Shown here: positions 2,757 through 33,634 of the stretch, in pieces
Layout of the letters: each line of letters begins with the position of its first letter
Position numbering within the stretch: the stretch's first letter is position 1
NCBI GenBank assembly: GCA_029856105.1
Contig: JAHQWH010000013.1
Coordinates: forward strand, 1 to 62,720
From: Promethearchaeia archaeon
GTDB taxonomy: Archaea > Asgardarchaeota > Lokiarchaeia > Sigyniarchaeales > SOKP01
DNA: 62,720 nt
Direction of reading: 5' to 3'
Notes under the pieces: generated by a model
The model's database searches: none
Told to the model about the DNA's origin: nothing
Seen by the model: only the letters and a program-made list of their open reading frames with translations
Position numbers and translations under genes: made by a program

Positions 2757-2767
2757 TATACGAAAGT
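2757..2767 (+). repeat. Left copy of 11-bp direct repeat TATACGAAAGT (candidate att/target site)
   Basis: Exact copy at 31240-31250; 15/18 identity when extended to the right. Confidence 0.4.
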
Positions 2768-3069
2768 GGAAATCTATTTTTTCTTACTATTTATTATTTT
2801 CTATTTTTAACAATCAAACAATTTAAACGCCTTGTTTAGAAATATATTATGGATAGTCATTGTTTTATATTAAATGTCAAAAAACAGCTTTTCCTAAATC
2901 ATAATGAGTATATGAATAATAAATTTAAATTCTTTTTATTATTTAAATAGCGCAATTTTTAATACCACAAAAAATTCTTAGATTATTCTTTTATAGATAA
3001 ACACTTAAATTAAGATCTCTATTATTGATTTACTAAAATCAGAAATAAAAAATCTAGAGTTAAAAAAAA

Positions 3070-3330
3070 ATGACAAAAAAAAAGTGTTCTTATTGTGGTA
3101 GTACATGGAATCCAGAAAAGGATCATATAAAAGCTAAAAGTAAAGGGGGGAAAACAACTACTAATGCGTGCCAATCATGTAATAGATCAAAAAGCAATGA
3201 TTCTGTTCTTTCTTGGCTAAGAAGACTCAAAAAAAACAAAGAATATCGTTGGACAAGAATTAAAGACTATCAAAAAGGGAAAAGGAATGAGATTGCTAGT
3301 AAAGTTCGAAAGGTTGCAAACGAGAAATAG
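3070..3330 (+). CDS. Small HNH endonuclease
   Basis: CSYC...DHIKAKSKGG...ACQSCNRSK zinc/HNH signature. Confidence 0.8.
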   Translation: MTKKKCSYCGSTWNPEKDHIKAKSKGGKTTTNACQSCNRSKSNDSVLSWLRRLKKNKEYRWTRIKDYQKGKRNEIASKVRKVANEK

Positions 3331-3388
3331 CTAAAAAATTAAAGAATGTAATTTTCTTAATAATAAAAAAAAAAATTATTTAATTATT

Positions 3389-3643
3389 CTAATACTCTTT
3401 TAATCTTTCTTGTTCGTAAATGTCAATCATTCTTGCTGCTAAATCGTCGTTCCAAATCCATTCTATAAATTGACCAGTTATTTTACCGTTCCAAATAGCG
3501 TGTGTATTTAAATATAGTTTCTCAAAAAATTTCATTTTCTTCAAAGCACGTTTGCCAATAATCCGTTTAATGCCGTCTGCGTCGAGAAATTCGTCTCCAA
3601 TTTTTACATGATCGAGATTTGAACTGAATTTTTTACTTGCCAT
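3389..3643 (-). CDS. Hypothetical protein
   Basis: 84-aa ATG ORF with GAGG SD-like sequence upstream; no motif recognised. Confidence 0.6.
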   Translation of the reverse strand: MASKKFSSNLDHVKIGDEFLDADGIKRIIGKRALKKMKFFEKLYLNTHAIWNGKITGQFIEWIWNDDLAARMIDIYEQERLKEY

Positions 3644-3708
3644 TTAAATTTTTCCTCTATCTTGTTTATTTTTTATTTTACTTCTTTTTTTTAAATTCGT
3701 TTTTATCG

Positions 3709-3729
3709 GTGCTCTGGAAGCCAGACCAC
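3709..3729. other. GC-rich hairpin GTG-C-TCTGG-AAG-CCAGA-C-CAC
   Basis: Inverted repeat in an AT-rich intergenic space, just downstream of the 3746..4234 gene. Confidence 0.4.
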
Positions 3730-3745
3730 ACTTACAATAAAAAAA

Positions 3746-4234
3746 CTATTTTAATGATTCTATATTACCCTTAAATCCTTTCAACTGTTCTTCCCAGTCA
3801 TCTGAAAAATTAGGTCTTGGTATTAAATAGAACTCTCTCTGTGGTATATCCTTATGTGCTGAACCATCTCTTTTAGGCGTTTTCAAATAAATTTCATACG
3901 ATTTTTTAATTACTGGTGCTACAATAGTAGATGGAACTATCCAAAACTCTGGAACATTATCTGGCATATTTAACCTTACAAAAGCATAGAATAAGCTTTC
4001 TTTTATCAATGTTTCGGCTTTTTTATTAATCCAAAGAAATTTGTTTACTTTTAAATATGTCGGCTTAACTGAAACAGTTAAAAGTTTGCCTTGTGGATTC
4101 TGAACAAACAAATCAAATCCTTCTGTTCTACCTAAAGACACATTGACTTTAAATCCATGCTTGGCTAACATGTGAGCTATATAGAACTCACCCGCAATAC
4201 CTATATCGTTATTAGATACTTTTAATTTGCTCAT
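3746..4234 (-). CDS. PD-(D/E)XK-fold nuclease-like protein
   Basis: GIAGEFYIAHML...GFDLFV...VSVK pattern typical of small restriction/resolvase-like nucleases. Confidence 0.7.
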   Translation of the reverse strand: MSKLKVSNNDIGIAGEFYIAHMLAKHGFKVNVSLGRTEGFDLFVQNPQGKLLTVSVKPTYLKVNKFLWINKKAETLIKESLFYAFVRLNMPDNVPEFWIVPSTIVAPVIKKSYEIYLKTPKRDGSAHKDIPQREFYLIPRPNFSDDWEEQLKGFKGNIESLK

Positions 4235-4490
4235 ATTTTACCATCCTCTCTGAAAGCACATATATATCTTAATTCACATTTACTACAATCCCCTATATCT
4301 TCCTCGAAATAACTTAAAAACTTTTCTCTTGATTTAGAATCATTTATATTGCCAGTATAATTTAATAACATTTAAGTTTCTTTTAATATGTTTTGAAGTA
4401 GTTCTGAAAATTCAATAGATTCAATTGTTTTATAAACACCTTCTTTATTATATAACTCTAACACTGGAATTATGTTTATATAACTACTAC
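4231..4490 (-). pseudogene. Decayed gene with C-terminal CxxC-x5-C motif, coupled to the downstream nuclease
   Basis: Frame reads ...LLQNILKET*MLLNYTG...DCSKCELRYICAFREDGKI*; in-frame TAA at 4372-4374; TGA overlaps the ATG of 4234 (ATGA). Confidence 0.5.
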
Positions 4491-4772
4491 AACATTAATT
4501 CAATTATTACTTGATGGAAAAACATATTTAGATTAATTTTATTCAAAGAGAGAGCAAGGATTTTCTCTAAAATTGTTATTTAAAGAATCAATTCTTCTAT
4601 TAACCCACACCTTAATTAAAAAGATTTACCAACGATTTATTTTATTAATTCCATTATATTAGTGCCAAATAGCAAAATTTGATTGTTCGTTAAATCCAAT
4701 TTGATAAACTAAGAAAAGTTTTTTAATTTCTAAATACTTATCATTTTAAAATCTAAAAATTAGCATTTTATC

Positions 4773-5522
4773 ATGTTTAATATCATATTACAATCGATTT
4801 ATAGACTTACTCCAAAGAATAGATGGATGGTTGCCGCTCCTATATCATTTGCCTTTAATAACTTGTATTATTTAGAGCTCGAGATATTTCGCCCATTGGA
4901 TGATAAAAGAAAACAAATTCAAGGAAGGTATAGTATTAGGAATATTTATGGTGATCGGAAAACTTTCATAAATGAAAAATTTCTCAATATTATAAAAAGA
5001 AGAATTGTAAAAAAAGAAGAGCCCGAAAAACCGCTCGATATGGATTATAAAGTATGTTTATTGGGTTTAGAAATAAGTGATCCGTTAGATACCCAATACT
5101 TAATTGTAGCAAAAATGTCAGCAATTAATAAAGATCTAATTGATACCCTTCAAACATCAACTCAAAGGAAAACAGAATTAATTAAATTAACTCAAAGATT
5201 TCTTACGCAAGATTATCAAGGTGCGATAAAGGAAGCGGGAATATTTGGTGAATATATTGCTAAGGAATTTCTTAAGAAATTAAAAAAAAAGTTTACTAAT
5301 TTTAAATCAGCAATTGATTGTTTGACAAATTTACCAAAAACTAGCAGATCAAAAATCAACTACAATTATATTGGAAATTTACTACATCCAATATATTACA
5401 TTAGAAATGAAGCAATGCATCCAAATCCAGAAATTTCATTGAATAAAAATACAGCATCAGTAGTTTTAAAAAATTTATCGGGGTTAATTAAATACATTTC
5501 CATCAATAAAATAAAAATCTAA
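4773..5522 (+). CDS. C-terminal HEPN-domain protein (putative RNase toxin/effector)
   Basis: Helical C-terminus DYQGAIKEAGIFGE...IRNEAMHP = E...R-x4-H HEPN motif. Confidence 0.7.
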   Translation: MFNIILQSIYRLTPKNRWMVAAPISFAFNNLYYLELEIFRPLDDKRKQIQGRYSIRNIYGDRKTFINEKFLNIIKRRIVKKEEPEKPLDMDYKVCLLGLEISDPLDTQYLIVAKMSAINKDLIDTLQTSTQRKTELIKLTQRFLTQDYQGAIKEAGIFGEYIAKEFLKKLKKKFTNFKSAIDCLTNLPKTSRSKINYNYIGNLLHPIYYIRNEAMHPNPEISLNKNTASVVLKNLSGLIKYISINKIKI

Positions 5523-5575
5523 AATTAAAATAAGTCTTACCTTGAGATAAAATTTTGTTATCAATTTTTCATAAT

Positions 5576-6139
5576 TTAAGTGTTTAATTCGATTCCAAAT
5601 TCTTTTTTAACATAATCCTTCAAATCTTTCAACATTTGTATGTACAAAGCTTTTGCTTTAACTTTATATAAAGTTAAGTTAGCTTCATCTCTATTATTTC
5701 TATCATTTAAATATATTGTAGGCGAATTATGATATTTAAAATAATGGATTCTATACTTCTCTTTCAGAAAATAAAAATTCTGAACGCTATTAACAGTCGT
5801 CATTTCTCTATGAAATCCAAAATACTTACCTAACTCTCTCTGGTTTCCATCCAGATATCTTAAAATGAAGTCAAGATTTGATGAATGTGGAGTTTCTCCG
5901 AAAAGTTCATCAAGAAAAGTCTTTATTTCTTTATAGTGACGGTTAATAATACTTTTTTCTTCACCAATCTTTATATATCTTTGAAAAAAATATTGTATTA
6001 TTACTGAAACCAATACAACCGAAATCAAATTCAAAAATAAATCTTTTATTTCAATAATTTGAAAAACAAATAATATGATTAAAGAAACAATACAGATACT
6101 AATTATAATGATTAAAATGATTGGACTTTTAATTTTCAT
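5576..6139 (-). CDS. Two-TM membrane protein with soluble C-terminal domain
   Basis: Two N-terminal hydrophobic stretches (about residues 6-29 and 33-51). Confidence 0.7.
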   Translation of the reverse strand: MKIKSPIILIIIISICIVSLIILFVFQIIEIKDLFLNLISVVLVSVIIQYFFQRYIKIGEEKSIINRHYKEIKTFLDELFGETPHSSNLDFILRYLDGNQRELGKYFGFHREMTTVNSVQNFYFLKEKYRIHYFKYHNSPTIYLNDRNNRDEANLTLYKVKAKALYIQMLKDLKDYVKKEFGIELNT

Positions 6140-6236
6140 AATTCTTTAAGATTCATTCCAATTTATTATGTATTAGTTAAGTTTTAATTATTTAAATTAA
6201 TGCTAAGAAAATTAATATAATATTTAAAAATAAACG

Positions 6237-7361
6237 TCATCCATCTCCGTTCCCTGCTTTTTCGATTGACTCCGTTTTCTTTTTTTTTCGCTTGTATTTT
6301 TCGTAGCGAACCCTGTTTATTTCGACAACTTCCCTTAATTCTTCGATTTTCTTAATCCTATAACTCTTTATCAGCGTTTTATACCGTATTTCGTGCCCTA
6401 ACTCTAATTCGTGGTCGATTAGCCGAACGTGGATGGTTTGCGGAAACTTTCCTCCCGTTATCACTAACCCTTTTTTTATTCTTCTTGTTGGTTTTTTGCA
6501 AACTTTACATTTGTGGGGGATGTATTTCGTTACCGTGTGAATAGGTTCTAAATGCTTAGAACTTACGAACCCCGTCGTCTCGTAGGCAGGCTTTAGTTTT
6601 CCGTCGTCTTTTCTCCACAACGCGCAATGGGTAAGTGTGTAAAAAAGCGTGTGGTAAGCGTCTTCCCTGCTTCCAAAATTAACGTAGACCCAATCTTTAA
6701 ATTTTTCCCTAAAATCGTTCGCGTGTAGCACGTAACCGTACCCTATGTAGTGAAAGTGGGGGCTTAGAACCCGTTTTAAGTCTTTGGTTTCGCAAGAACA
6801 CTCGTAGTCTTTTTTTCCGCAAGTTCTACACTGCTTAACCCATAGATCGAGTATTAAAACTCCTCCAAACAGTCCAGATTCTTCTAAAATAGTTTTTACG
6901 ACGAGTTCCCTTCTAAATTTGAGAAAGCTATCGTAATTAGTTAGTATTTCCTTCATTAGCTCTTTTGTCGGGCTTAAGGCGATGTGCTTTACCATACCAA
7001 TTTTAACGCCTTCTTTTGACGCTTTGGCTCTAAGTTCTTTTAATTTCCCGTTTAAATCTCTCGCTCTCGTCGAGGAAGCTTGGATAAAACAAGTTTCGCA
7101 ATCCATTTTGTTGCAATGGTTGTAATGTAGCGTGAGGCTTTTGTATACGTGGTCTTTACACGCGCTAGCTCCTCGAAAGGTGTTGCAGTTGTCCCTGTAC
7201 CTCCCGTCGTCGTGCGTTTTCTCGAAATTCCCGCTCCCAGCGATTATCCAGTTTGCTATTCTCTCGAATTCTAAAGTTTGGTTCTCTTTTATCTGGTCTA
7301 TTACGTTAAATTTGCTTTCAGTTAGGGTTTCTACTTCTACAGCCATTTTTTGTCGTTGCAA
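6237..7361 (-). CDS. HUH rolling-circle initiator/transposase (IS91 / SNJ1 RepA-like)
   Basis: N-terminal Cys cluster (C..C..CNKMDCETC), motif I KHIALSP, GLFGG, motif II SPHFHYIGYG, motif III YHTLFYTLTH, C-terminal CKVC; likely start is the ATG at 7346. Confidence 0.8.
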   Translation of the reverse strand: MQRQKMAVEVETLTESKFNVIDQIKENQTLEFERIANWIIAGSGNFEKTHDDGRYRDNCNTFRGASACKDHVYKSLTLHYNHCNKMDCETCFIQASSTRARDLNGKLKELRAKASKEGVKIGMVKHIALSPTKELMKEILTNYDSFLKFRRELVVKTILEESGLFGGVLILDLWVKQCRTCGKKDYECSCETKDLKRVLSPHFHYIGYGYVLHANDFREKFKDWVYVNFGSREDAYHTLFYTLTHCALWRKDDGKLKPAYETTGFVSSKHLEPIHTVTKYIPHKCKVCKKPTRRIKKGLVITGGKFPQTIHVRLIDHELELGHEIRYKTLIKSYRIKKIEELREVVEINRVRYEKYKRKKKKTESIEKAGNGDG

Positions 7362-7428
7362 ATTTTTTTGATTTCGTTAGATTTTTGTACTTTAATTACT
7401 TCCAATCGACCTTTAAAAACTGCCCGAC

Positions 7429-7449
7429 AAAATTTCGTGTCACGATATT
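7429..7449. promoter_or_regulatory. Palindromic putative operator upstream of rep
   Basis: AAAATTTCG-TGTCA-CGATATT, same layout as AAAATTTCG-CGACT-CGAAAAT at 31147-31167. Confidence 0.4.
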
Positions 7450-7653
7450 CTAAATCTGTTATTTCTCTTAAGAATTCCCCCTTCAATCATTTTGAATAAT
7501 CATTAGATTCTTTAAAATATAATTAATTCTTTTCTTTGAATTATTTCATTTTTTATCTATAAAATCACCCAATTCATATTCCATGATATCTAACTTTAAT
7601 AAAAACATTTTAAAGATTCTTTCTATATGAACCTACCAAAAAATCGGAAAAAA

Positions 7654-8949
7654 TTACTGTTTATTAATATTAAGTTTTTTATGTTTAATAGTACTGGGGT
7701 AAGGAAAATTCCCCCTCAATAGGATGACAATAATTTTAAATCCTTTTTCTTCAAATACGCTAACATCTTTAGTGGAATAATTCTTGGTTTTCTCTGTATT
7801 ATCGTAAACAACAAGAAATCCCACATCTTCCTTTCTATTATAACAATAGTATGCAACTTGATCCTTATGAGCTTCATAGATTTTATCTAAGTCTTGTTCC
7901 GTGTCTTCCACCTTGACATCAACGGGATAATTGTAGATCAAGAAATCAATATCTCCCTTTGCCACTTTCTTGTGGTTTTCTACTTTAGAACCTAAATTGG
8001 AATATAATTGACGATATACCTTATTGTGAAAATCCTCTTCGTCAATATCTTCTTTAGTTTTAAAAAGCGGAATTTGTAGATGTGAACCGTATATGGATAA
8101 AAGATTATCGATAACGGCATTAAACTGCCTTTTGCTCCTCACTTTCTCGTCAATCTCACTACAAATTGCTTTCTTAATCCTTTTTATTTGGTTTTCAAGA
8201 ACAACTTCTGGATAATTTTCATTCCAGTATTCGTCAATTTTATCAAGGATTCGTCTTATACCCTTTCGAGTGCAGCTAAAGAATAGGGAAAGATTCTCCA
8301 TTATTTTCCAACCAGTAGTGTTAAATATTTGCTTGGAGAAATCGGGGGGTCCTGTTCGTGAAGTATATTCGGGGTCTACTGAATCGTAATAATCACCATA
8401 TATACGCCATTTAGTATCTTCATAAATTGTGATTCCATTTCCATCTTTCACGCCAATAGCAAATTCAACGCAATATTTATCAAATTTAGGATCATCTTGA
8501 GGGATTTCGTCTTGATTTCTTGAAACAGCATCATTCTTACTAGAACCCCAAATATCCCAGTAATATAGCATAATTAATGCAAGTTCGTCTTTTTCGTTTA
8601 AGAATTCTACATAAGCTAATAATTCATTAATTATAGCTGAATGCTCTTCAGTGAAGGTCTTTATTTTTTGAATAATTTCTTCATAAGATTCATAAGAAGG
8701 ATTGTTCTTTAATTGATGCATCTGATCTCTGAAGTCTTCTAAAACTTTCAATATATATCGTGTCTTTTCTTCCAATTCATCGATGTTTCTCTCTTTATCT
8801 TTAATCCACCATCGATAAATATGAATTGGTTTGTAATTATTCTTCTTTATATAGATATTCTCGGCTGTCACGAAATACTTGTGAATACGACCAATTGTCA
8901 GTGTTGCTCCTTCAAATAAATCTTTGTGCAACTCTTTGAACGATGCCAT
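7654..8949 (-). CDS. Protein with C-terminal PD-(D/E)XK nuclease domain and unknown N-terminal domain
   Basis: EEDFH...GDIDFLIYNYPVDVKVE...DQVAYYC...GFLVVYD. Confidence 0.72.
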   Translation of the reverse strand: MASFKELHKDLFEGATLTIGRIHKYFVTAENIYIKKNNYKPIHIYRWWIKDKERNIDELEEKTRYILKVLEDFRDQMHQLKNNPSYESYEEIIQKIKTFTEEHSAIINELLAYVEFLNEKDELALIMLYYWDIWGSSKNDAVSRNQDEIPQDDPKFDKYCVEFAIGVKDGNGITIYEDTKWRIYGDYYDSVDPEYTSRTGPPDFSKQIFNTTGWKIMENLSLFFSCTRKGIRRILDKIDEYWNENYPEVVLENQIKRIKKAICSEIDEKVRSKRQFNAVIDNLLSIYGSHLQIPLFKTKEDIDEEDFHNKVYRQLYSNLGSKVENHKKVAKGDIDFLIYNYPVDVKVEDTEQDLDKIYEAHKDQVAYYCYNRKEDVGFLVVYDNTEKTKNYSTKDVSVFEEKGFKIIVILLRGNFPYPSTIKHKKLNINKQ

Positions 8950-9179
8950 TTTTTAATGATATTTTATTTCAATTTTTTTTCTAAATTTTTCTTTAAATAA
9001 TAATGAAAATATTGAAGTATTAAAGTTTAGGTTGAAATAACTATTTTGAATACAGAAAGAAAATTGAAAATATTATGTTTTTTTATATGAAGTGATGGTG
9101 AAAATAACAATAATTCCACAATATGAACACCGTACTATCTTTATTTTTTTCTATTAAACCTTTCATTCCATTATTCTTG

Positions 9180-11231
9180 CTAATAAAAATCATATAATTT
9201 CGTTTGTTTTTTATCATCGTCCATTGATATCTTGTTTGCGATTTCATTTCTAACGATTTCTTCACTTTGTAATAATTGTTCATTATCTGAGTGGTTTTCT
9301 TTATCATTAGATATGGTGTCAATTTTCAATTCTTCTATATCTTCGCGTGTTTCATCTATTTGAAATGCTAATATAAAATTAATTATTTTTGGTAAAACCT
9401 CGCTCATATTTTCTATTGAAAGATTTTTAGCAAATGTAAAAGCTTTAAGACCTTTTTTGTCTCCGTGTTGCGTTATTCCGATTAATTTTTCAAAATTAGG
9501 ATTTATTGTAATTAAACCAATTTTATTATTGCCTATTGAAATAAGCTCATTTATCTTATTATTTTCCTTAAATCGTCTTTTCTTCCCTTGAATTTGCTCA
9601 ATTTTTCGATTATCATATCCTAACTCTCGTAATTTATCTGCAGATTTTTCTTGTTCAGCGGTTAACGGATCAATATCGTGAATAACGATAATCGGTTTAT
9701 CGTAATAGAATAATATCTTGATAAAATAAGATAGCATAGTTTTTCCACCGCATTCTACTATTGAGAAATTTAATTTATCAAAATTTTTACCCATTAGCTC
9801 AGCAACGTGAGATAATACAATTTTTTCCACATTACCTTCAACTAATATAACTTTTTTTGCAAAAAACATTTCGTTTCTTTCAGGATTGAATCTCATTAAA
9901 AGTTCATATTCTTTTTGCACCTTTGGTTTAAATAACTCTTTTTCTATAAAACTTATTCGAGAACCCGTTTCTATCGGTTCTTTAATTGTTAATCCTATTG
10001 ATAAATAGTTACTTATATCAATGAAATTAGAACTATGAGTGCTATAAAACACTTGATCGTATTCAGATATTAGAATTAATATATCTCTAAGGGATTTCTG
10101 TGCTTGGGGATGTAAATATAATTCAGGCTCTTCTATTATAAATAAAAATGGTTTATCTTCTGAAATTCCTTTATCTTTTATCTTATTCTTTAGATATTCT
10201 GAATATGTAATAAAAAGAGAAAAAATTAATGCTCTTTTTAATCCATCGCCTTTATTTTCTATTGAGCTTTCTATTCCGTCATTAATTATTATATCCGTAT
10301 TCGTAAAAAAATCTTGTAATCTTGGGGGAAAAATCTTAATTTCTATGCTATTTGTAGCAATATTTTGATTTAAATTTTTCAATAAATTACTTTCAATTTG
10401 TTTAATTATTTCAAATCGTTTATCTTCTTCATCTTCTCCTTTTTTTAGAAGGGTTTCTAGCTCGTTGCGATTTTTTTTAAATTCTTCAATTATCTTTGAA
10501 TCGTCCGAATTGTCCTCTATGCTTTTTAAAATTATTTTCTCTAAAATTTTTTTATAAATTGATTTACTTTTTTCAGATGTTTTTACTTCTTCCGAAATTT
10601 TTTTTGTCGCCTCAATGTATAACACTTCTGGTAAAAAGCTAGAAATTTCTTTCCATTTTAGTTTTGTACTACACTCTTTTTTTTTGAGTTCACATTCATT
10701 ACCTTTTTCTTTTATAAATTGAGGTATAGCTTTTTCTACACTTGCTTTAGTTATTTTCCCTTTATCATTTTTAATTCCATCTTCATAATCATGTTCCTTA
10801 AAAAAGTTAATAATTGCTTCGCTATTTTCTCCCCATTTATTAAATTTACTACCATCAAAATGGGGAATTTCTGGAAGTTCTCGCGTTATTAGAAGATCTG
10901 ATGAAACTCTTTCAGTTTCTTCGTTCATCGATATAATTTTTGTTATAATTAGATTGTTATCACACAAGTAATCTTCAAAAAATATATTTTCCAACTCGGT
11001 TAAATTGAAAAATGTTATTGATATTTTAATCAAGTTTTTTATGGTCTTTTGAAAAAAATCTTCTTGTGTAATTCCAGCAACAGAACTTTTAAAGAATAAG
11101 TCTATAGCTCTAAAAACATTTGTTTTCCCTGAATTGTTTTCTCCAATCAATTGTAAAAAGTTATTTTTTATTTTAATGGTTAATTTCTTTATGGAGCGAT
11201 AATTCTCAATTGATATCGTTTCTATTAACAT
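9180..11231 (-). CDS. OLD-family ATP-dependent nuclease (ABC ATPase + TOPRIM)
   Basis: IENYRSI, Walker A GENNSGKT, signature KGDGLKR, Walker B IEEPELYLHP, STHS, TOPRIM LVEG...CGGK...DID. Confidence 0.9.
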   Translation of the reverse strand: MLIETISIENYRSIKKLTIKIKNNFLQLIGENNSGKTNVFRAIDLFFKSSVAGITQEDFFQKTIKNLIKISITFFNLTELENIFFEDYLCDNNLIITKIISMNEETERVSSDLLITRELPEIPHFDGSKFNKWGENSEAIINFFKEHDYEDGIKNDKGKITKASVEKAIPQFIKEKGNECELKKKECSTKLKWKEISSFLPEVLYIEATKKISEEVKTSEKSKSIYKKILEKIILKSIEDNSDDSKIIEEFKKNRNELETLLKKGEDEEDKRFEIIKQIESNLLKNLNQNIATNSIEIKIFPPRLQDFFTNTDIIINDGIESSIENKGDGLKRALIFSLFITYSEYLKNKIKDKGISEDKPFLFIIEEPELYLHPQAQKSLRDILILISEYDQVFYSTHSSNFIDISNYLSIGLTIKEPIETGSRISFIEKELFKPKVQKEYELLMRFNPERNEMFFAKKVILVEGNVEKIVLSHVAELMGKNFDKLNFSIVECGGKTMLSYFIKILFYYDKPIIVIHDIDPLTAEQEKSADKLRELGYDNRKIEQIQGKKRRFKENNKINELISIGNNKIGLITINPNFEKLIGITQHGDKKGLKAFTFAKNLSIENMSEVLPKIINFILAFQIDETREDIEELKIDTISNDKENHSDNEQLLQSEEIVRNEIANKISMDDDKKQTKLYDFY

Positions 11232-11502
11232 GTTCTGATTTTAGATTTAATTGTTTATTTTGTGTATTATCAAAAAAAAAAAGGGTTCAAACTTTTGTCT
11301 TACCTAAGCTAAATTCTATTAATTCAATTTATCTGTTTTTCAATAACAGAGTAGAATTTAAGGTTTTTATATTTGTGTCAATTTTTATTATTATTTTTTT
11401 TCTTTTTTGCTCGTTTTATCTGCGTGCGACTGAATTCTTCGGGCAGCTTTAGAGGTTATTTTATTTTTTCCCATACAAACACCTATGAAATGTGATTTTG
11501 AT

Positions 11503-12438
11503 TTATTTACCGAAAAGTTTCTCCCACTGGTTGTTTTTAGCTAAGTTGTTCGCGTGTCGTAGTTTATTATTAAAAGTGCTTACTTGTTTCTTATTGTAAT
11601 CGTTTAGAATTGATTTATAAGTGTATACTCTATCTTTTAATATCAATTCGTTATCAAAATGTTTTCCGAAAAGAATGACAGATTCTCTAAAAAAAGTTCG
11701 TACAGCACCTTTCCACCCGTTTATTTCGTGATCAATAAAAATTTCTTCGACTAATCTTTGAATCACATAAGATTTTAACGGTTTTTTCCAATGCCAGTTC
11801 CAATATTTTAGTAGCAAAATGAGCTTTGTTCCGTTACCGTGGTGTTTCTTGTTCAATTTGTTAAGTCCTTTTTCCTCGGATTTTAGATTAATTTTTTTTT
11901 GGTCATTCCATCCATCAGGAACGAGCAATAAGTTTTTAGGTAACTCTATCGCAGGAATGCAATCCATCTTCAGAACCTTATTTTGATAATGTAATTCAAT
12001 GGGTATGGCGTGAGTGCGTGGAAGTGCCTTTAATATTACAAGGTCTTTGTTAATTCTTTCGTGAATTGTGTCTAAATCGTCATATAATGTCGTGAACATG
12101 CATTCTCCGTCTAAAATTTCGAGGTTTAAAGAAAATCCATCGTTTTCCTTGTATATCATATAGATATCGATGTCAAACTTTTTATTTATGTGCACTCCTA
12201 AATCAAAAGAGCCACCGTACCAAAATCCTTTCACTTGGACAGCGTTAGAAAATTCTTGAATAGCATTTTGGGGAGGAGTGAATATCCATTCTGATACCTT
12301 GATTAGTTCTTTTTTCACATAATTAACCTGATTTCTAAGATATTTTTCTTTTCCTTCCTTAATGGTTAAACCGTCAATTAATTGTTCAAACCAATGTTCT
12401 GTATATTTTTTCGACAAATCAGTAATTAAAGAAAACAT
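11503..12438 (-). CDS. cGAS/DncV/OAS-like nucleotidyltransferase (CD-NTase/SMODS)
   Basis: GGSFDLGVHINKKFDIDI catalytic motif, third Asp in MDCIPA, LLVPD, helical KLILLLKYWN...LKSYVIQRLV. Confidence 0.82.
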   Translation of the reverse strand: MFSLITDLSKKYTEHWFEQLIDGLTIKEGKEKYLRNQVNYVKKELIKVSEWIFTPPQNAIQEFSNAVQVKGFWYGGSFDLGVHINKKFDIDIYMIYKENDGFSLNLEILDGECMFTTLYDDLDTIHERINKDLVILKALPRTHAIPIELHYQNKVLKMDCIPAIELPKNLLLVPDGWNDQKKINLKSEEKGLNKLNKKHHGNGTKLILLLKYWNWHWKKPLKSYVIQRLVEEIFIDHEINGWKGAVRTFFRESVILFGKHFDNELILKDRVYTYKSILNDYNKKQVSTFNNKLRHANNLAKNNQWEKLFGK

Positions 12439-12553
12439 GCATATTTAAATTTGATCATCTTAGAACCATCAGTAAAATGAAAAGTTTATAAAAATTAGAT
12501 CTGAACAGTTAAACCTTTTTATTTCGAAAGTGGTATATTTCTTTCTCCAATTA

Positions 12554-23239: not shown

Positions 23240-23429
23240 CTAAAATCATCGTTGAATTTTATTTGTTTGTTAAAAAAATTAAACTGAAAACATGATTAGT
23301 ATTTTTCTATAATTTACTTGTTGGATTTTAATAAGTTAAAAATGATTTACTTATTTAAATCTTTATGTGATTGTTGTTACTTGAAGTCTGGAAAAAGTAG
23401 AGTTAATATCGCGAAAAAAAAGCCATAAA

Positions 23430-24830
23430 CTACAAGTTTTTAAATCTTCCTTTTGAATCTCTTGAATAATTCTTAGTTATCTGTTTCATTTTATTTTTAT
23501 GTCTTTCTTGAGAACATTTGGGACACCAAGAACCTTCTGGTCTCGACGGTTTTCCCCTTATATCGCTCGGAGTTGCCTTCCAAGTAAAATCGTGCTTGTT
23601 ACAGTACCATTCTAAAGGTATTACTTCTCCAAAAAAATGGTGTGACAATAGCTTTCCGTCCCGTTGCTTCGCAATTTCCTGCAATTCTTTTACGTAATTA
23701 GGTAAAGAAACGTCAAACTTTCTCCAATCTATTTTCTTTGCTTTCGGTGGCGGATAAATTCCGTTCGCTACGCAGGTTTTCCTAATGTAAGTTTCCATCT
23801 CCTTAATTTTAATCTTGCGTAATTTTCCATTTCTCCACTCGTAACCGACTTCGATCAATACGATTCCGCGTCTCTCGCATTCTTTACGCTTATAATCGTC
23901 AGCTCGTTTTTGTTTTTCGAAAAGCTTAGGATTATCTCTGTGAAAATATGGGTGGTAAACGTAGTGTTGTATGCCCTGACTTTCGAAAGCTAGTTTTAGC
24001 TCCTCGTTGTATCCGTCCAAATGTAAACCGTATTTTTTTAACCAAGATAATTTGTTTTCTTTACGAAATTCTTTTCCAAATAGTTCTTGAAAGAAATTCT
24101 TACATATCCTTTCTGATCTTCCGCTCGCACAATTAGGACACCAAGAACCTTCTGGTCTTTGTGGTTTACCAATCACGTCGCACGGTTTTGCTTCCCAAAC
24201 GTGTCCGCACGTTCCACATTTCCATAAATGGCGCTCTGTAACGCCTAAAAAGTTAGGCGATAAACATTCCCCTCCGCCCGCTTTTGATCCCGCAATTCTT
24301 TGCATGTCTTCAATCGTGTACCTGTAATTATTCTGCGGGTTTGATTCAATTGCACATCTTGGACACCAAGTACCTTTTTTCGAGGGATAATCTTTTATGG
24401 TGCTTGGTTTCGCTTTCCACGCGTAGTTATGTTTGTTACAATACCATAAATGCGGTTTTGTCGTTCCTAAAAACTCCGTCGATAATAGTTTTCCCCCTCG
24501 TTCTATCGCCAAGTTCTTAAAATATTCGAATAAAACAACTTTAGATTTTTTACTACAATAGGGACACTTAAAGGTATTTCTTTTAACCTTTTGTGTAATA
24601 TTAGCTCGAAAATCTGCCCATTTGTTCTTACATACAACGCACTCTAATTCGAGCGGAGCCATGTTGTTTAAGTATTCTTTTGATAAGACCGTTATATTTT
24701 CTTTGCGAGAAAGTTCAATTATTCTTTGTAAGTATTCGTTCCTTTTTTCTGGCGATAGTCTTGGTTTATTGAATTTGTAAGTTACTTTTGAATTACTGCG
24801 TTTCTTATCGTTTTTATTTTCGTTATTCAT
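23430..24830 (-). CDS. Zinc-ribbon repeat protein with Vsr/PD-(D/E)XK-like endonuclease domain
   Basis: Four C..H.W.A.P..I...G.WCP.C-type units (first degenerate); LHLDGYNEELKLAFESQGIQHY...DDYKRKEC. Confidence 0.8.
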   Translation of the reverse strand: MNNENKNDKKRSNSKVTYKFNKPRLSPEKRNEYLQRIIELSRKENITVLSKEYLNNMAPLELECVVCKNKWADFRANITQKVKRNTFKCPYCSKKSKVVLFEYFKNLAIERGGKLLSTEFLGTTKPHLWYCNKHNYAWKAKPSTIKDYPSKKGTWCPRCAIESNPQNNYRYTIEDMQRIAGSKAGGGECLSPNFLGVTERHLWKCGTCGHVWEAKPCDVIGKPQRPEGSWCPNCASGRSERICKNFFQELFGKEFRKENKLSWLKKYGLHLDGYNEELKLAFESQGIQHYVYHPYFHRDNPKLFEKQKRADDYKRKECERRGIVLIEVGYEWRNGKLRKIKIKEMETYIRKTCVANGIYPPPKAKKIDWRKFDVSLPNYVKELQEIAKQRDGKLLSHHFFGEVIPLEWYCNKHDFTWKATPSDIRGKPSRPEGSWCPKCSQERHKNKMKQITKNYSRDSKGRFKNL

Positions 24831-25218: not shown

Positions 25219-25246
25219 TTTTCGTATAACAGAAAAAGATATATAT
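25219..25246 (+). other. dif-like 11-6-11 site (or promoter of the AbrB-like gene)
   Basis: TTTTCGTATAA-CAGAAA-AAGATATATAT; arms match the inverted site at 31222-31249. Confidence 0.35.
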
Positions 25247-25270: not shown

Positions 25271-25423
25271 ATGGAAAGTAAAAAAATTACGACTTTAATA
25301 AAAAGTCCTACTAAGAAAGGAGATCAGTATTATTTCAGCATACCTATAGAATTTATTCGCTCAAAAAAAATTGACCCTGAGAAAAACTACGAAATTCAAA
25401 TTTTCTCTTTAGCTCAGGAGTAA
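25271..25423 (+). CDS. AbrB/SpoVT-like small DNA-binding protein (not in ORF track)
   Basis: MESKKITTLIKSPTKKGDQYYFSIPIEFIRSKKIDPEKNYEIQIFSLAQE; G-x-x-Y-Y-F-S-I-P swapped-hairpin pattern; TATA-like sequence ~25-30 nt upstream. Confidence 0.7.
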   Translation: MESKKITTLIKSPTKKGDQYYFSIPIEFIRSKKIDPEKNYEIQIFSLAQE

Positions 25424-25460
25424 ATTTATTACTAATATATTAAAAAATTAAAGCAAGTTA

Positions 25461-25690
25461 TCGTTTCCCGCTCGTTCTTTGAGGATCGGGGTTGATGGGG
25501 GGGATTTGTCCCCTTCTTAATTGTGATATTTTTGCGTTTAAAAAATATGGCTTAAAAACTCTAAGACAAAAATCGTCCCGTTAAAAAGTAGATACGTGCA
25601 AGTTAAAAGTTTCAGAGCGACCCGTTAGCCCTTGATGGTTGCGGAGCGAAGCGTAGCAAGGTCGCGACAGCGGAGCGTAAGCGAAGCCAA
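25461..25690. other. GC-rich multi-hairpin non-coding region (candidate origin or ncRNA)
   Basis: GCGACC/GGTCGC and TTGC/GCAA stems; GCGAAGC at 25646-25652 and 25681-25687; GTCGCGAC palindrome. Confidence 0.5.
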
Positions 25691-26204
25691 ATACTATTTT
25701 TTTGAGTGAAAAAATCCCTATTAAAAATTTCTATTCTTAAGGTGTTATTTTAAAAGTTGATTATAATAAATGCACTCCCTATGTGGCTAAAAATCGCTCT
25801 AAAATGATAAAGGATAAGGTTAATTGGTTAGAGATTAAAGAAACGATATCATCTGTATCAAAAGCTGAGTTACGCAAAGAATTTTTTAGTAAAAAAGGGA
25901 TTATCAAATTATTGAATAGAATAAATGAATTATGCAATTTTAAGGTTTAAAATTTCAGATCTCTTAACACAAGCACCTATTCTTCCCTTTTTTGAAGTAG
26001 AATCTGCCATAGTATTTTTTTAACACTAAGATTCATTTTTTAAAATTATTATCTAATTTACCCTACGCATATTTAAACCAGCATTAGAAGCAATTAAATT
26101 GAGACAAAAAAAAATCGATTGAGGAACAATTGAGGAACGGTTGTATTAAAAGATTAGTAGATATTAAATTAAAAGAATTTAATTAAAAAAAAGGATGGAA
26201 GAAT

Positions 26205-26729
26205 TTAGGTTTGATATCTTACCATAGCATAATCGATCTTAACGCTTCCAGGTACGAACAAGGAATAACCATCAAAACCAACATCTTTAACTTTTTTATA
26301 AGGATCTAAAGTGTAGATGCTATAATGAGAACCACTTACAGCCCATGAATCGCTCGTCCCATCGGTATAATCAACTGATAAAGTACACCCCCATAGATTA
26401 ACTATACTATAATCAATGTACAGATAAACATCTGGATAACTACTACTAGGAGTATGAAAAAATACACCCATTATTACCCGAAAATAGAAAATTGGAGAAA
26501 ATGGGTATAAGGTTACAGCCAAAACTTCATACACACTATTATCATTAGTATGTGTTGAGATGTAATTTCCTTGTAATACTATTCCGACTGGATTTCCTGT
26601 AGAATAAGCTTTATAATCGTAGCTAGCTGCTTTAACATAAACTGGTAAAAAACTCATTATTGAAACTGTTAGAACTAATGTAAGAAGTAAAGATCGATTT
26701 TTTCCTAACGATTTTTTAATAATTTTCAC
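26205..26729 (-). CDS. Secreted beta-rich protein
   Basis: Basic N-terminus, hydrophobic core and VKA-A cleavage-like site; Tyr/Ser-rich mature part. Confidence 0.7.
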   Translation of the reverse strand: MKIIKKSLGKNRSLLLTLVLTVSIMSFLPVYVKAASYDYKAYSTGNPVGIVLQGNYISTHTNDNSVYEVLAVTLYPFSPIFYFRVIMGVFFHTPSSSYPDVYLYIDYSIVNLWGCTLSVDYTDGTSDSWAVSGSHYSIYTLDPYKKVKDVGFDGYSLFVPGSVKIDYAMVRYQT

Positions 26730-27003
26730 CTTATTTATTTAAATAAAAATATTTTTTTGTCTTACTATAATTTTTTTATTTTAGATTATAGTTGGGAAAT
26801 AATAAAGAACATTGAATATTTAAACTTTTTTGTCTATATTCCCAAACAATTGAATCGATTAAAATTGAAAAAAAATTTTAGTCCTAAAAATACTTATATT
26901 AAATAGATTAATTAAAATATCTCGTTAAAATTTGCTTTGTTAATTTATTAAATAATTCGCCGTTTTAAAAGCATTTAAATCAATGGTAATCTCTCTGTTA
27001 CAT

Positions 27004-27798
27004 CTAATTGATCCGTATATCTAATTTATTGAATTGATAAAAAGTAACTAATACAATGATTACTGGTGCACAAATAACGACAATAAAACTAAGTAACAAC
27101 ATTTCGTAATTACTATTTTGATTAAATAGAGTTTCATAAAAGAAAAAATAGATGTTCTTCCTAAAATAATTGTAATTTAGAAATTTCATGTTATAATATT
27201 CAAATGTGGGGCTTATGCTCATGTAGAAGTAAGAAAATCCTAACGCAATCAAAGCACTATGTGTTAAAGCTGAAAAAATTAAAGTTAATGCTAGCCAGAA
27301 GATTAACTCAATAAATATTAAAAAAAACCCCATAAGTAAGATATTAATTGATATTGTTAAGTTCATAGTTAATAAAACTACAATTTCAAACAATAGAAAA
27401 GAAAAAATTATAATAAATAATAAATGAATAATCGAAAAAATCATTTTTGAGACGAGAATTCTATTCCGAGATACTGTCGAATATAAAATCATCGCTGTCT
27501 TACTAGAGAATTCTCCAGAAACTAAGTTGGCAGCAATTATGATAGGGATAAACTTAAAAAAAGGACTGCTATAACCAGCACCAATAAAACCTAACCAAAA
27601 AATATTCGTTTCTAATATATTTTGATCAAAAAATTCAATTCCACTTAAACTATATATAATTAGAATAATCGATAGACTTATACATATTAATGTTTTGATT
27701 GATAGAAATTCTTTTTTAAAGTGATGAATGAATAAAATTTTTTCGTGATAAAACCAAATACTAATTTTGTCTTTTTTTTTCATAAATATTCTCCTCAA
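27004..27798 (-). CDS. ABC-2 type transporter permease
   Basis: About six TM helices; VSGEFSSKT...VSRNRILVSK motif. Confidence 0.85.
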   Translation of the reverse strand: MRRIFMKKKDKISIWFYHEKILFIHHFKKEFLSIKTLICISLSIILIIYSLSGIEFFDQNILETNIFWLGFIGAGYSSPFFKFIPIIIAANLVSGEFSSKTAMILYSTVSRNRILVSKMIFSIIHLLFIIIFSFLLFEIVVLLTMNLTISINILLMGFFLIFIELIFWLALTLIFSALTHSALIALGFSYFYMSISPTFEYYNMKFLNYNYFRKNIYFFFYETLFNQNSNYEMLLLSFIVVICAPVIIVLVTFYQFNKLDIRIN

Positions 27799-28723
27799 TA
27801 ATTTTTTTATATAATTTACTTAAAGTTCCACTAAGAGGACCCAAATTAAAGTCTTGGTAATCTTTTAAAAATGTTTTAACTTTTTCTGGATTCTCAGTGC
27901 TAAAAATTATCTTTTCGCTTAAAATTTTTGGTTTATCAAGAAATAAATCTTTTTTCAAGCAAAATAAACCAAAAACTTCATTTATTGATAGATTGCTTTT
28001 GTGAGATACACGATTTATCTCACATTCTTTATATCCTAATATTTGAGCTAATGCTAAAATTGGACCTGATTTTTTTATTTTACCATTATCAATAATAGCA
28101 ACATAATCTGCTAATTGTTCTATTTCAGAAACTATATGACTTGAAATAATTATTGTAATACCTCCTTTTCTTTTTTCTCTTATTTTCTTAATCAAATCCT
28201 CGCGTCCCAATGGATCTATACTAGACAATGGCTCATCTAAGAAAACTAATTTAGGATTACCGGCAAAGGCTTGAGCAATTCCGAGTCGTTGACGCATTCC
28301 CCGAGAATATGTTCTAATTTTTTTATCCCAATACTCATTTTGTAAGCCGCTCCAATTTAAGATGTTTTCGGTTAATTCCTTCTTTTCTTTTCTGTTTCCT
28401 CTTAGAGAGATAATTAGTTCAAGAAAATCTCGCCCGGTAAAACTAGAATAAAATCCAACATTTTCAGGGAGGAAACCAATCTTATTAAGAATATCAGTCA
28501 AATTTTTTGAGATCTCCTTTCCTAGAACATATGCCGTCCCTATAGAAGGTTTTACTAATCCGATTAACATTAAAAATGTCGTAGTCTTTCCAGCTCCATT
28601 CGGACCTAAGAAAGCAAAACAAGATTCTGGAATTTCTAAATTGATGTTATCAACAACTGTTTTTTTATTGTACTTTTTGGACAAATCTTGAATTTTTATA
28701 ATAGGTTTTAACTCTTGTCTCAT
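27761..28723 (-). CDS. ABC transporter ATP-binding protein
   Basis: GPNGAGKTT, YSRGMRQR, LDEP, SSH. Confidence 0.93.
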   Translation of the reverse strand: MRQELKPIIKIQDLSKKYNKKTVVDNINLEIPESCFAFLGPNGAGKTTTFLMLIGLVKPSIGTAYVLGKEISKNLTDILNKIGFLPENVGFYSSFTGRDFLELIISLRGNRKEKKELTENILNWSGLQNEYWDKKIRTYSRGMRQRLGIAQAFAGNPKLVFLDEPLSSIDPLGREDLIKKIREKRKGGITIIISSHIVSEIEQLADYVAIIDNGKIKKSGPILALAQILGYKECEINRVSHKSNLSINEVFGLFCLKKDLFLDKPKILSEKIIFSTENPEKVKTFLKDYQDFNLGPLSGTLSKLYKKIIEENIYEKKRQN

Positions 28724-29214
28724 AATACTGAAATTTATTTTTAGTTAGATTATTATATGAACATTATATTTAAAAATATTTTCTAAAAAAGTTTTAGATA
28801 AATTGAGATTACATCATGTCCCTACTTTCCTAGCAAGGAATAATTATTTTTTCCAAAATAAGGATGTGGAATATTGGATATAGTATTCAGAAAATTCAAA
28901 AAAAATAAAATAAGTAATACTCGCAATTTTTCTGCTGTAAAAACCTCTCTTTGTAGTTTTCGCAAGTTTCGGAATTGATTCGTCGCAAATGAGGTTTTAT
29001 ATAGCACGTGCAGGACATAGATATATCTTTATCATTTTAGAATGGAATGGATAACCAAACTTTTCGATAATTCCGCTTTTGATCAGTACATTTTGTAAAA
29101 ATATTGCTTCACGGAAATAGCAAACAAGATTAATGCTTTTGTGAAATATTTCTATAAAATTATAAAAGGAACAGTTTAAATATTAAAGTGATTAAGATCA
29201 GTGCATTGAAAAAT

Positions 29215-29414
29215 ACACTCCCACAGTGTCGACTCGGGCGCATTCGATCCGAAGGGGCAGTAGGACGCCAAGACACGCAATAAGCGAGGCGCCATTACTA
29301 ACGCTGAATTTTTAGAGTAGCGAAGGTTGTGAAGCGATAATTATGAACATAAAAGCGAATATCTTTTAAAATGAGCGGGAAGGTTCGCGAAGGAAACCGA
29401 AGGGGTTTCCTTGC
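29215..29414. other. Second GC-rich multi-hairpin non-coding region
   Basis: ACACT/AGTGT, TTCG/CGAA, CGC/GCG and CGCT/AGCG stems; 9-bp stem AAGGAAACC-GAAGG-GGTTTCCTT at 29390-29412. Confidence 0.5.
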
Positions 29415-29430
29415 AATATTAAATATATGG

Positions 29431-29994
29431 CTATTTTATGTTTTTTTTTTTAGGAAAACCACTTTCAATATCTCGTATAATCGAATTATATCTTGAACGC
29501 CCCCAAAGGTATCTATCCTTACTTCTTAAATCTTTGAATTCTTTCTCTAATTTTAACGCCTTAAATGCTTCTATAAATTCTAAATATCTTTCTGATTTTT
29601 TAGAACCTAAATTTTTAAATCTTTTTAATTCTTCGTGTTCTACGACTCTATAATCGTATACAGTGAATCTTTGGGGATATAGCACGGTTAATATGGCAGA
29701 AGCAGTAGCTATCCGAAACTCCCAATCAAATAGAATTTTTATTCTTTCTAAATCGGAGAGAGCACTATATATTTCGCCCGTTAATGTTATAACGTTCTCG
29801 TCAAATGTTTTAGATTCTTCTTTTTTTATTATTTTTCTAGCGTTTTTCCTTTTTGCTCTATCAGCCTTCCAAATTAAAATGCAATAAAACTGGACTCCGC
29901 TGATATACCCGTTATGTTGAAAGAATTCCGTAATATCCTTAAATAAATAACTTTCCAAATCGTAAAATTTCTCGTAATCTATTTTCTCGCTCAT
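29431..29994 (-). CDS. HhH/OGG-like DNA glycosylase-fold protein
   Basis: ILIWK...IATASAILTVLYPQRFTVYDYRV...RSKDRYLW. Confidence 0.55.
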   Translation of the reverse strand: MSEKIDYEKFYDLESYLFKDITEFFQHNGYISGVQFYCILIWKADRAKRKNARKIIKKEESKTFDENVITLTGEIYSALSDLERIKILFDWEFRIATASAILTVLYPQRFTVYDYRVVEHEELKRFKNLGSKKSERYLEFIEAFKALKLEKEFKDLRSKDRYLWGRSRYNSIIRDIESGFPKKKNIK

Positions 29995-30012
29995 TTTGGT
30001 TTTTACATCCTT

Positions 30013-30567
30013 TTATTTGATCGCTTTTTCATTTTTAGGAAATGAAATCTGTTCTTTTATTATTAATTCTTTGAATTTCTCTCTAAATTGCGTCTGATTA
30101 CCACGTGATGGAAAATTCAACATCTCAGTATTAATAACGTTAAATCCAAGTTTTCTAAGTCTCCCATTTAAAGAATTGAAAACAACTTTCTTTATTAGAA
30201 TTATTTTAGTGTCCTTATCTGTTAATTTTTTAAGCTTTTCAAGTAAATATGCAAAATCGTCGTTAATTAAACCTGCTATTACTTTATCGCTTAAACCGCT
30301 TGGAATTGGCGTGTGAATGGCATCTATTAAAAAAAAACCTATAGATTGTAATTCAATCAACCACTGCTTTTTATCGCTCCTTTCATATTTCATCGAAAAA
30401 AGAATTTCCACTATATTTTTAAAGAGATGGTCGTGTTTTTCCACTTTTTCAGAATAAAAATATCTTAACTCTTCTCCCTCTTTTTTCTCTGGGGGAGCTT
30501 CTGCGATAAATAAGTATTTTATTTTATAGGTTGGTTTATATTTCTCTGCTGCAGCTTCATATATCAT
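30013..30567 (-). CDS. Uracil-DNA glycosylase superfamily protein
   Basis: LFIAEAPP (motif A), YFY, FFLIDA, IILI, LNFPS (motif B-like). Confidence 0.65.
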   Translation of the reverse strand: MIYEAAAEKYKPTYKIKYLFIAEAPPEKKEGEELRYFYSEKVEKHDHLFKNIVEILFSMKYERSDKKQWLIELQSIGFFLIDAIHTPIPSGLSDKVIAGLINDDFAYLLEKLKKLTDKDTKIILIKKVVFNSLNGRLRKLGFNVINTEMLNFPSRGNQTQFREKFKELIIKEQISFPKNEKAIK

Positions 30568-30728
30568 CTTTCCTAACCTTTTTTATTTGATTTTTCTTAA
30601 CTACTTTGAATATTTAATAAATATGCTAGTAATAAACATTTATCCCAAATTCTTTCTCTTTAATTATTACAAGATCGATTAAATATAAAAAGAGTTCTAA
30701 AAAAACCCCCGACCTACTTCGTTCTCTT

Positions 30729-31055
30729 TCATTTCCCCTCGGAAAAATCTTTAAAATCCCGAAATCGACAACCGCTTTCGACGGACGTTTTACGCTCGTC
30801 TTCGGAACATTTAGCTCCCACTTCCTTCTCGAGCAAACCCTTTACGAAACCCTCCACGGCGACTTTGTACTCGCCAACTCTGCTTTTAGGCACTTGAAAA
30901 AACAAAAAGGCGGAACCTTCCCCCAAAGTTGACTCTATAGCATACTTACCCTCGACGAACTCCCGAACTGCCTCTCGGTACTCCAATATCTTGCTCGTAG
31001 GAACCCGAACGCTCACCCAGCCCGATGCCTCGCCAAACTTACGCTTTCTACCCAA
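30729..31055 (-). CDS. Tandem ribbon-helix-helix-like DNA-binding protein
   Basis: MGRKRKF; internal duplication WVSVRVPTSKILEYREAVREFVEG / FLFFQVPKSRVGEYKVAVEGFVKG. Confidence 0.55.
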   Translation of the reverse strand: MGRKRKFGEASGWVSVRVPTSKILEYREAVREFVEGKYAIESTLGEGSAFLFFQVPKSRVGEYKVAVEGFVKGLLEKEVGAKCSEDERKTSVESGCRFRDFKDFSEGK

Positions 31056-31150
31056 GAACCCAAACCAAACTTTGTTAAATCTTTCTTAAATTATAAGTTA
31101 AAGGCAACGATTTTAAACCGCTTGAATTTTAAAAGAAAAACATTCGAAAA

Positions 31151-31216
31151 TTTCGCGACTCGAAAATATGCGTTCCGAGACTCGAAATGGCCCCCCTCCT
31201 TTTCCGAGACTCGTAA
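31151..31216. repeat. Three imperfect 15-bp quasi-palindromic repeats TTYCG-MGACT-CGWAA
   Basis: Copies at 31151-31165, 31173-31187 and 31202-31216. Confidence 0.7.
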
Positions 31217-31221
31217 AACCT

Positions 31222-31250
31222 CTATGTATCTTGATATATTATACGAAAGT
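31222..31250 (-). repeat. dif-like site containing the right copy of the 11-bp boundary repeat
   Basis: Minus strand CTTTCGTATAA-TATATC-AAGATACATAG. Confidence 0.4.

Positions 31251-31348: not shown

Positions 31349-33634
<2,286 letters not shown>

What the first reader, a model, noticed from the sequence alone, without database searches (positions are those of the whole stretch)
2757..31250. Integrase-less ~28.5 kb defence island whose only recognisable mobility enzyme is an IS91/SNJ1-like HUH protein
Seen: no tyrosine or serine recombinase, DDE transposase or tRNA target. There is one HUH protein with Zn clusters, and ~24 kb of genes upstream of it, all on the same strand except a 50-aa AbrB-like gene. 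Established: IS91/ISCR elements move by rolling circle and capture DNA lying upstream of the transposase gene, and haloarchaeal SNJ1 RepA is related to IS91 transposases. Inference: an Asgard rolling-circle transposon/plasmid hybrid (ISCR- or Helitron-like behaviour) that collects defence cassettes.
Basis: partly seen in the sequence, partly recalled or inferred. Interest (0 to 1): 0.75.

Follow-up and report, generated by a model that had tools for sequence, protein, structure and literature searches.

The report
Asgard integrase-less rolling-circle cargo element
This 28.5-kb island is one copy of a family of mobile elements in Loki-group Asgard archaea that have no integrase, keep fixed end signals resembling a rolling-circle nick site, swap defence and other cargo between those ends, and most likely move using their single-strand-nicking (HUH) protein.

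Summary
The island has no recombinase, DDE transposase or tRNA. Its 374-aa protein is a HUH Rep homologous to SNJ1 RepA (hhalign 98.8%) and only remotely to IS91 transposases. On rep's template strand the 28-bp site shares 13 bases with the pGT5 nick site. Relatives have the same ends at seven or more host loci, a backbone of rep plus a membrane HerA/TrwB-like ATPase, different cargo, and rep-less derivatives. Empty alleles lack the motif, which argues against Xer/dif integration. Cargo changes between fixed ends, so ISCR-style read-through past the upstream end is not supported. Junctions are imprecise: host deletions of 6 nt to 5 kb and tails from earlier sites. At three loci the element carries an intact foreign copy of the gene it splits. 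Best reading: Rep-driven transposition finished by host end-joining (0.6). Main rival: an integrated rolling-circle plasmid inserted by host recombination (0.25). Nicking and circles are untested. This scan noted the family before in another genome (e1-5564749).

The parts
2757..2767 (-). Downstream (R) end: 11-bp half-site ACTTTCGTATA, ending about 11 nt before the M20 peptidase start codon
   Evidence: same half-site downstream of rep on its coding strand in 14 of 35 rep loci, 0.86 expected, 0 on the other strand
31223..31250 (-). Upstream (L) end: near-invariant 28-bp site; on the window + strand it contains the candidate nick between 31233 and 31234
   Evidence: 13-base identity with the pGT5 origin (PMC9569500); nick position is inference
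31251..31264 (-). T-rich non-host overhang (12-13 nt here, 5-40 nt in relatives) between the L site and host DNA after cdc48
6237..7361 (-). HUH Rep, SNJ1 RepA family, with Zn clusters; H202/H204, Y241
19151..20875 (-). Backbone membrane-anchored HerA/TrwB/FtsK-type ATPase; candidate DNA pump
   Evidence: near rep in more than 10 other loci
25219..25246 (+). Inverted internal half-site overlapping the likely promoter of the 50-aa gene; probable binding/operator site
   Evidence: also in G113 of another genus
25271..25423 (+). 50-aa small backbone gene (AbrB-like by eye only)
   Evidence: conserved in G017, G015, G008 elements; no profile hit
25600..25706 (.). Conserved non-coding block A, kept in a rep-less copy; candidate single-strand origin or transfer site
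   Evidence: no better folding than shuffles; no Rfam hit
29208..29421 (.). Conserved non-coding blocks C and B with a 9-bp-stem hairpin, kept in a rep-less copy
30729..31055 (-). 108-aa backbone gene next to the L end (RHH-like by eye only)
   Evidence: 85-89% in G017 and G026 elements
4528..4575 (.). Conserved non-coding block D downstream of rep
3070..6139 (.). Cargo downstream of rep: HNH nuclease, PD-(D/E)XK-like protein, 249-aa and 187-aa unknown proteins
7654..15535 (-). Cargo: LmuA-like nuclease, OLD nuclease, CD-NTase-like cyclase, type IIG restriction-modification enzyme
16511..18896 (-). Cargo: PARIS-like AriA/AriB pair
20978..24830 (-). Cargo: KAP-family NTPase and multi-zinc-finger protein
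   Evidence: KAP gene shared with L061 at 85%
26205..28723 (-). Non-defence cargo: secreted protein and ABC transporter pair
29431..30567 (-). Two unassigned genes (187 and 184 aa); the first is shared with the G017 element

Best explanation
The island is an autonomous copy of a Lokiarchaeia family of rolling-circle cargo elements. Shown: SNJ1-type HUH Rep, two strand-specific end signals, a rep + membrane ATPase backbone, many insertion loci, rep-less copies that keep both ends, and variable internal cargo. Inferred: Rep binds the 11-bp arm and cuts and rejoins the strand complementary to its own gene, as IS91 does. The end downstream of rep is joined to the target almost flush. The strand is finished 5-40 nt beyond the upstream site and sealed by host microhomology end-joining, which deletes host DNA (here the M24 peptidase and neighbouring genes). 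The ATPase probably exports the single strand to another cell. Cargo is exchanged internally by recombination between family members rather than by read-through.
For: Rep homology to SNJ1 RepA; HUH Reps lead the fold search, weakly (Z 5.5 and 4.7). Half-site downstream of rep on one strand only, 15-17 nt after the stop codon in several loci. Nick-like 13-mer shared with pGT5 and pC194-like; IS91 uses the bottom strand and a CTTG target. No tyrosine recombinase on any rep contig in the 10 genomes tested. At least 7 host loci. R junction falls within a few nt of one position of the DUF6786 gene in lineages with 43-93% identical Reps. Patchy distribution, 12 of 161 genomes, and a 40%-identical Rep in a host 89-94% identical in DNA.
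Against: Neither end is exact at the predicted nick: all L ends keep the whole site plus an overhang, and several R ends carry 43-170 nt from earlier loci, which strict IS91 polarity does not explain. No target consensus found. A distant subfamily has a variant L site without the exact 13-mer (L261). Known homologues (SNJ1, WyrdV4/5) are replication proteins. One rep copy per genome here, no circular family member found, no reads available. The motif was defined from the same loci that were counted, and the loci are related.
Confidence: 0.6

Rival explanations
1. Integrated rolling-circle plasmid. Rep only replicates a free circle from the L site; integration is done by host homologous and microhomology recombination, using host fragments that the element carries.
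For: Rep homologues replicate SNJ1 and Wyrdviruses; distant homologues lie on circular contigs. Intact foreign copies of the split gene inside elements at three loci, a foreign 5' replacement of Sua5, microhomologies at L junctions.
Against: Host repair alone would not place the half-site flush against the host in so many independent loci. A single crossover predicts overlapping duplications, but small deletions are seen. The L overhang is not a direct copy of the R-internal sequence.
Confidence: 0.25
2. IMEX-like element: the L site is an 11-6-11 dif mimic and the host XerA integrates the element.
For: The arm resembles XerC arms (own knowledge); a second two-arm copy lies at 25219; most hosts tested encode one Xer-like recombinase of about 316 aa.
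Against: Empty alleles lack the arm. Insertions are inside different coding genes. R ends have no conserved second arm. The 22-mer is in 14 of 161 genomes and a dif-type palindrome is no more frequent than its control.
Confidence: 0.08
3. Piecemeal hotspot: the cdc48-M20 interval collected genes independently, and rep is a passenger.
For: The interval is variable across the genus, with motif-less cargo scraps in G004 and G006.
Against: The same ends and backbone in the same order occur at unrelated loci; cargo genes recur beside rep elsewhere.
Confidence: 0.05

Closest known systems
SNJ1 RepA family of rolling-circle initiators (Simuloviridae; PMC12642351), including WyrdV4/WyrdV5 of Asgard archaea (bioRxiv 10.1101/2021.07.29.453957) and NitAQ6f-E2 (PMC6563490)
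   Same: Homologous Rep with N-terminal Zn cluster, HUH motif and one invariant Tyr; 21-28% matches on JABUBK010000290 (named as a Wyrdvirus) and the similar contig JABUBK010000395.
   Different: No virion genes; chromosomal, multi-locus, fixed ends, up to 24 kb cargo; extra CxxC-CxC insertion; SNJ1 stays extrachromosomal.
IS91 / ISCR rolling-circle insertion sequences (PMC13181058)
   Same: No integrase, no regular target duplication, near-flush end downstream of the gene, CTTG-type nick-like sequence on the bottom strand, non-autonomous copies.
   Different: Protein is not Y2_Tnp; no tetranucleotide target seen; ends imprecise with host deletions; direct-repeat arm at both ends; cargo inside fixed ends; extra membrane ATPase.
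Replitrons (PMC10288648)
   Same: Stand-alone HUH Rep, short direct terminal repeats, fuzzy end derived from DNA downstream of the parent copy.
   Different: Eukaryotic, CRESS-related Rep, small and multi-copy; here an SNJ1-type Rep, large cargo, both ends fuzzy. Probably convergent.
pGT5 / pTN1 / pC194 rolling-circle plasmids (PMC9569500, PMC5037232)
   Same: 13-base identity with the pGT5 origin.
   Different: Rep75 only marginally similar (hhalign 47.9%); the site is on the strand opposite to rep's coding strand and far upstream; not known to integrate without an integrase.
IMEX elements such as TLCphi and CTXphi (own knowledge)
   Same: No integrase, rolling-circle Rep, dif-like appearance of one end.
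   Different: No dif target; many loci; empty alleles lack the arm.

Membership tests
SNJ1 RepA-type HUH Rep | Sequence homology over Zn cluster, HUH motif and catalytic Tyr | tested here: met
   hhalign 98.8%, E 6.7e-17, 198 columns; hmmsearch 78.7 bits
SNJ1 RepA-type HUH Rep | HUH Rep fold | tested here: inconclusive
   model pLDDT 91; top four rows are HUH Reps but Z only 5.5-4.5; microvirus Reps among viral hits
SNJ1 RepA-type HUH Rep | Nicking and rolling-circle initiation activity | not testable with these tools
   needs biochemistry
IS91/ISCR | Y2_Tnp (PF04986) transposase | tested here: not met
   no Pfam hit; not found by PF04986 in own genome; hhalign 40.6% to a true IS91-type protein
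IS91/ISCR | oriIS downstream and terIS upstream, bottom strand moved | tested here: inconclusive
   geometry fits, but R-side tails and intact L sites do not
IS91/ISCR | Precise insertion at a CTTG/GTTC tetranucleotide | tested here: not met
   junctions vary, with host deletions of 6 nt to about 5 kb
IS91/ISCR | Capture of long upstream flanks by failed termination | tested here: not met
   upstream end conserved, overhang only 5-40 nt, no nested same-strand ends
Helitron | Rep fused to a helicase (RepHel) | tested here: not met
   this ORF is 374 aa with no helicase domain; longer fused homologues were not searched
Replitron | Short direct terminal repeats | tested here: met
Replitron | Fuzzy end from DNA downstream of the parent copy | tested here: met
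   43-67 nt of the CxxCxxCC gene found at two other loci; inferred from standing copies, not new insertions
Replitron | Replitron-family (CRESS-related) transposase | not tested
   no Replitron sequence compared; SNJ1 affinity is strong
IMEX (Xer/dif) | Insertion at a conserved chromosomal dif present in the empty allele | tested here: not met
Wyrdvirus provirus | Virion genes shared with Wyrdviruses | tested here: not met
   only Rep matches L106/L110 in tblastn of all island proteins; no PHROG structural family among the 10 unassigned proteins

The most novel reading that the evidence does not exclude
A self-transmissible HUH transposon class in Asgard archaea: one Rep serves as initiator, relaxase and transposase, a TrwB-like pump exports the strand, and carried host-gene copies or tails steer insertion to the homologous gene and compensate for splitting it (homology-guided, self-repairing insertion).
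Probability: 0.25. Interest if true: 0.88.

Novelty: new variant of a known kind. Interest (0 to 1): 0.66.

Why it matters
[quoted passage not shown] It also gives a testable intermediate between viral/plasmid HUH Reps and HUH transposases: an SNJ1-type Rep that appears to act on defined ends without an integrase. A candidate nick site, ends and rep-less copies are now defined, so a simple oligonucleotide assay can test it. The backbone could also seed genetic tools for Lokiarchaeia, which have none (own knowledge). I found no description in the searched literature, which omits most subscription journals.

Tried and rejected
Foldseek against PDB gave nothing useful. Rep found no match in annotated phages or plasmids, IMG/VR or PHROGs. 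The 14 viral hits of the end motif lie inside one coding gene of unrelated phages, so chance; several two-mismatch hits in other genera are also coding. Rfam: nothing in the island. Non-coding block A and both ends do not fold clearly better than shuffles; only block B has a clear hairpin. The idea that the L overhang is an inverted copy of the R-internal sequence was not supported overall (2 of 6 borderline). No shared motif at cargo-module borders by eye; attC models were not run. Genus g28 and G076/G096/G028 reps lack the motif nearby, so the end signals hold for part of the family only. The SNJ1 replicon paper was not available.
Full report
Host and content. Homologue names place the window in Promethearchaeota (Lokiarchaeia). 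The interval between the M20 peptidase (1594-2754) and cdc48 (31349-33622) holds an OLD nuclease, a CD-NTase-like cyclase, a type IIG R-M enzyme, a PARIS-like pair, a KAP NTPase, several nucleases, an ABC transporter pair and unknown genes. There is no tRNA and no integrase, resolvase or DDE hit in the ORFs or, for PF00589, PF00239 and PF01609, in six frames of the assembly. The strand bias is as described.

The Rep. ORF 6237-7361 has 23 close homologues and 634 profile hits. In an 84-row alignment H202, H204, Y241, C83 and C88 are invariant. The profile matches SNJ1 RepA at 98.8%, E 6.7e-17, with the HUH motif and the tyrosine in register. It matches an IS91-type transposase (40.6%) and pGT5 Rep75 (47.9%) only marginally. 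It also reaches the Rep of contig JABUBK010000290, described as a Wyrdvirus, and of a similar circular contig. The model is confident (pLDDT 91); the best structural matches are HUH Reps, at weak Z. So it is an SNJ1-type Rep, a family known for replication.

Empty site. cdc48 and M20 are 130-160 bp apart in G010, G020 and G015, and the closest relatives carry one to four host genes there, usually an M24 peptidase. G000 has no orthologue of the M24, hydrolase or lyase genes in its assembly. The island therefore replaced host genes rather than inserting cleanly.

Ends. A 28-bp site at 31223-31250 is invariant in five aligned copies and differs by at most a few bases in 11. Its first 11 bases recur at 2757-2767. 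In 35 rep loci this half-site occurs 14 times within 6 kb downstream of rep on the coding strand, never on the other strand, against 0.86 expected; the pattern came from these loci and they are related, so the P value overstates. On the strand complementary to rep the 28-mer contains TATCTTGATATAT, also found in pGT5 at its published origin (PMC9569500), and resembling the pC194 origin and the IS91 CTTG target. This predicts a nick at 31233/31234 on the window + strand. A distant subfamily has a variant site (L261), so the exact position is a hypothesis.

The family. G017 holds a 15.5-kb copy at another locus with the same end, the 108-aa and 187-aa genes, the ATPase (93%) and rep (90%), but other cargo. 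The membrane HerA/TrwB-type ATPase lies near rep in more than ten loci. Rep-less copies with both ends exist (4.5 kb in G017, 2.9 kb in G014, 8.2 kb in G008); the last keeps non-coding blocks A-C. Host loci include cdc48/M24, a DUF6786 gene, Sua5, a CxxCxxCC gene, a CbiA/ParA-like gene and at least two more. No rep contig carries a tyrosine recombinase in ten genomes tested. Cargo such as the IIG enzyme, cyclase, OLD and KAP NTPase recurs beside rep elsewhere.

Junctions. At the R end the half-site usually abuts host DNA within 0-8 nt, and one position in the DUF6786 gene is hit by lineages with very different Reps. Four copies at two other loci carry 43-67 nt of the CxxCxxCC gene after the half-site, like the fuzzy ends of Replitron-1 (PMC10288648). 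At the L end 5-40 nt of T-rich non-host sequence precede the site, often joined at short microhomologies or T-runs, and 6 nt to about 5 kb of host DNA is missing. At Sua5 the element supplies a foreign promoter region and 5' end that restore the gene. At three loci it carries an intact copy of the gene it splits, only 71-77% identical to the split allele. Empty alleles never contain the motif.

Mechanism. Shown: Rep family, strand-specific ends, backbone, multiple loci, non-autonomous copies, internal cargo turnover, imprecise joining. Inferred: Rep cuts and joins the template strand, fixing the R end at the target, while the L end is finished by host end-joining; the ATPase may export the strand. 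Not explained: how R-side tails travel under this polarity, and why replacement genes are so common. These two facts keep alive the rival in which Rep only replicates and host recombination integrates (0.25). Xer/dif integration is unlikely because there is no dif in the empty alleles or conserved across the genus.

Comparison and verdict. The element works partly like IS91 (geometry) and partly like Replitrons (direct repeats, fuzzy end), but fails the IS91 membership tests, and its enzyme belongs to the SNJ1 RepA family. The searched papers on Asgard mobile elements do not describe it. An earlier agent in this scan reached a similar reading on another genome (e1-5564749); that is not independent support, and I took the Replitron comparison from it and checked the paper. 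New here are the nick-site match and its strand, the junction series and the replacement genes. Verdict: new variant of a known kind, interest 0.66. No activity data exist; the read test could not be run.

Noticed in passing
L123:12157-12777, L126:5556-6170, L067:5241-6305, L261:6407-7186, L104:1697-2473: Elements carry an intact, diverged copy of the host gene they interrupt, at three unrelated loci.
   Followed up: partly
L011:2828-3100 and L124:9450-9621: The element's R tail supplies a foreign promoter region and 5' end for the split Sua5 gene.
   Followed up: partly
L051:2789-3135 (G004, just after cdc48): A fragment of the AriB-like gene is 90% identical to the window's although cdc48 is only about 69% identical in DNA: recent transfer of cargo to the same locus.
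   Followed up: partly
window 9183-9206 and 12557-12577: OLD nuclease and IIG enzyme both end in PIP-box-like motifs, seen in the translations (noted earlier as e1-5701191).
   Followed up: no
window 11503-12438: CD-NTase-like cyclase without an obvious adjacent CBASS effector; homologues lie near rep in L091 and L152.
   Followed up: no
L010:19563 to L011:914 (G015 C11): rep has lost its N-terminus and is fused to an upstream small gene, apparently by internal deletion (P0003).
   Followed up: no
L148-L151 (G130, G135; genus g28): A larger conserved module with rep, a 700-aa PD-(D/E)XK-like protein and the ATPase lacks the end motif; possibly a distinct subfamily with other ends.
   Followed up: partly
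G000 whole assembly: No PF00589 match at all, although most relatives tested have a Xer-like gene of about 316 aa; probably an assembly gap.
   Followed up: no
G000 C34:2489-3637: A paralogue of the membrane ATPase lies elsewhere in the genome without rep.
   Followed up: no
L124:10816-12831: A rep-less copy carries a 671-aa leucine-rich-repeat protein as cargo.
   Followed up: no
L221, L222: True IS91-family transposases occur in 4 of 161 genomes of the class, separate from this family.
   Followed up: partly
L102, L105, L108, L112: Distant Rep homologues lie on small contigs with terminal repeats, i.e. likely circular replicons.
   Followed up: no
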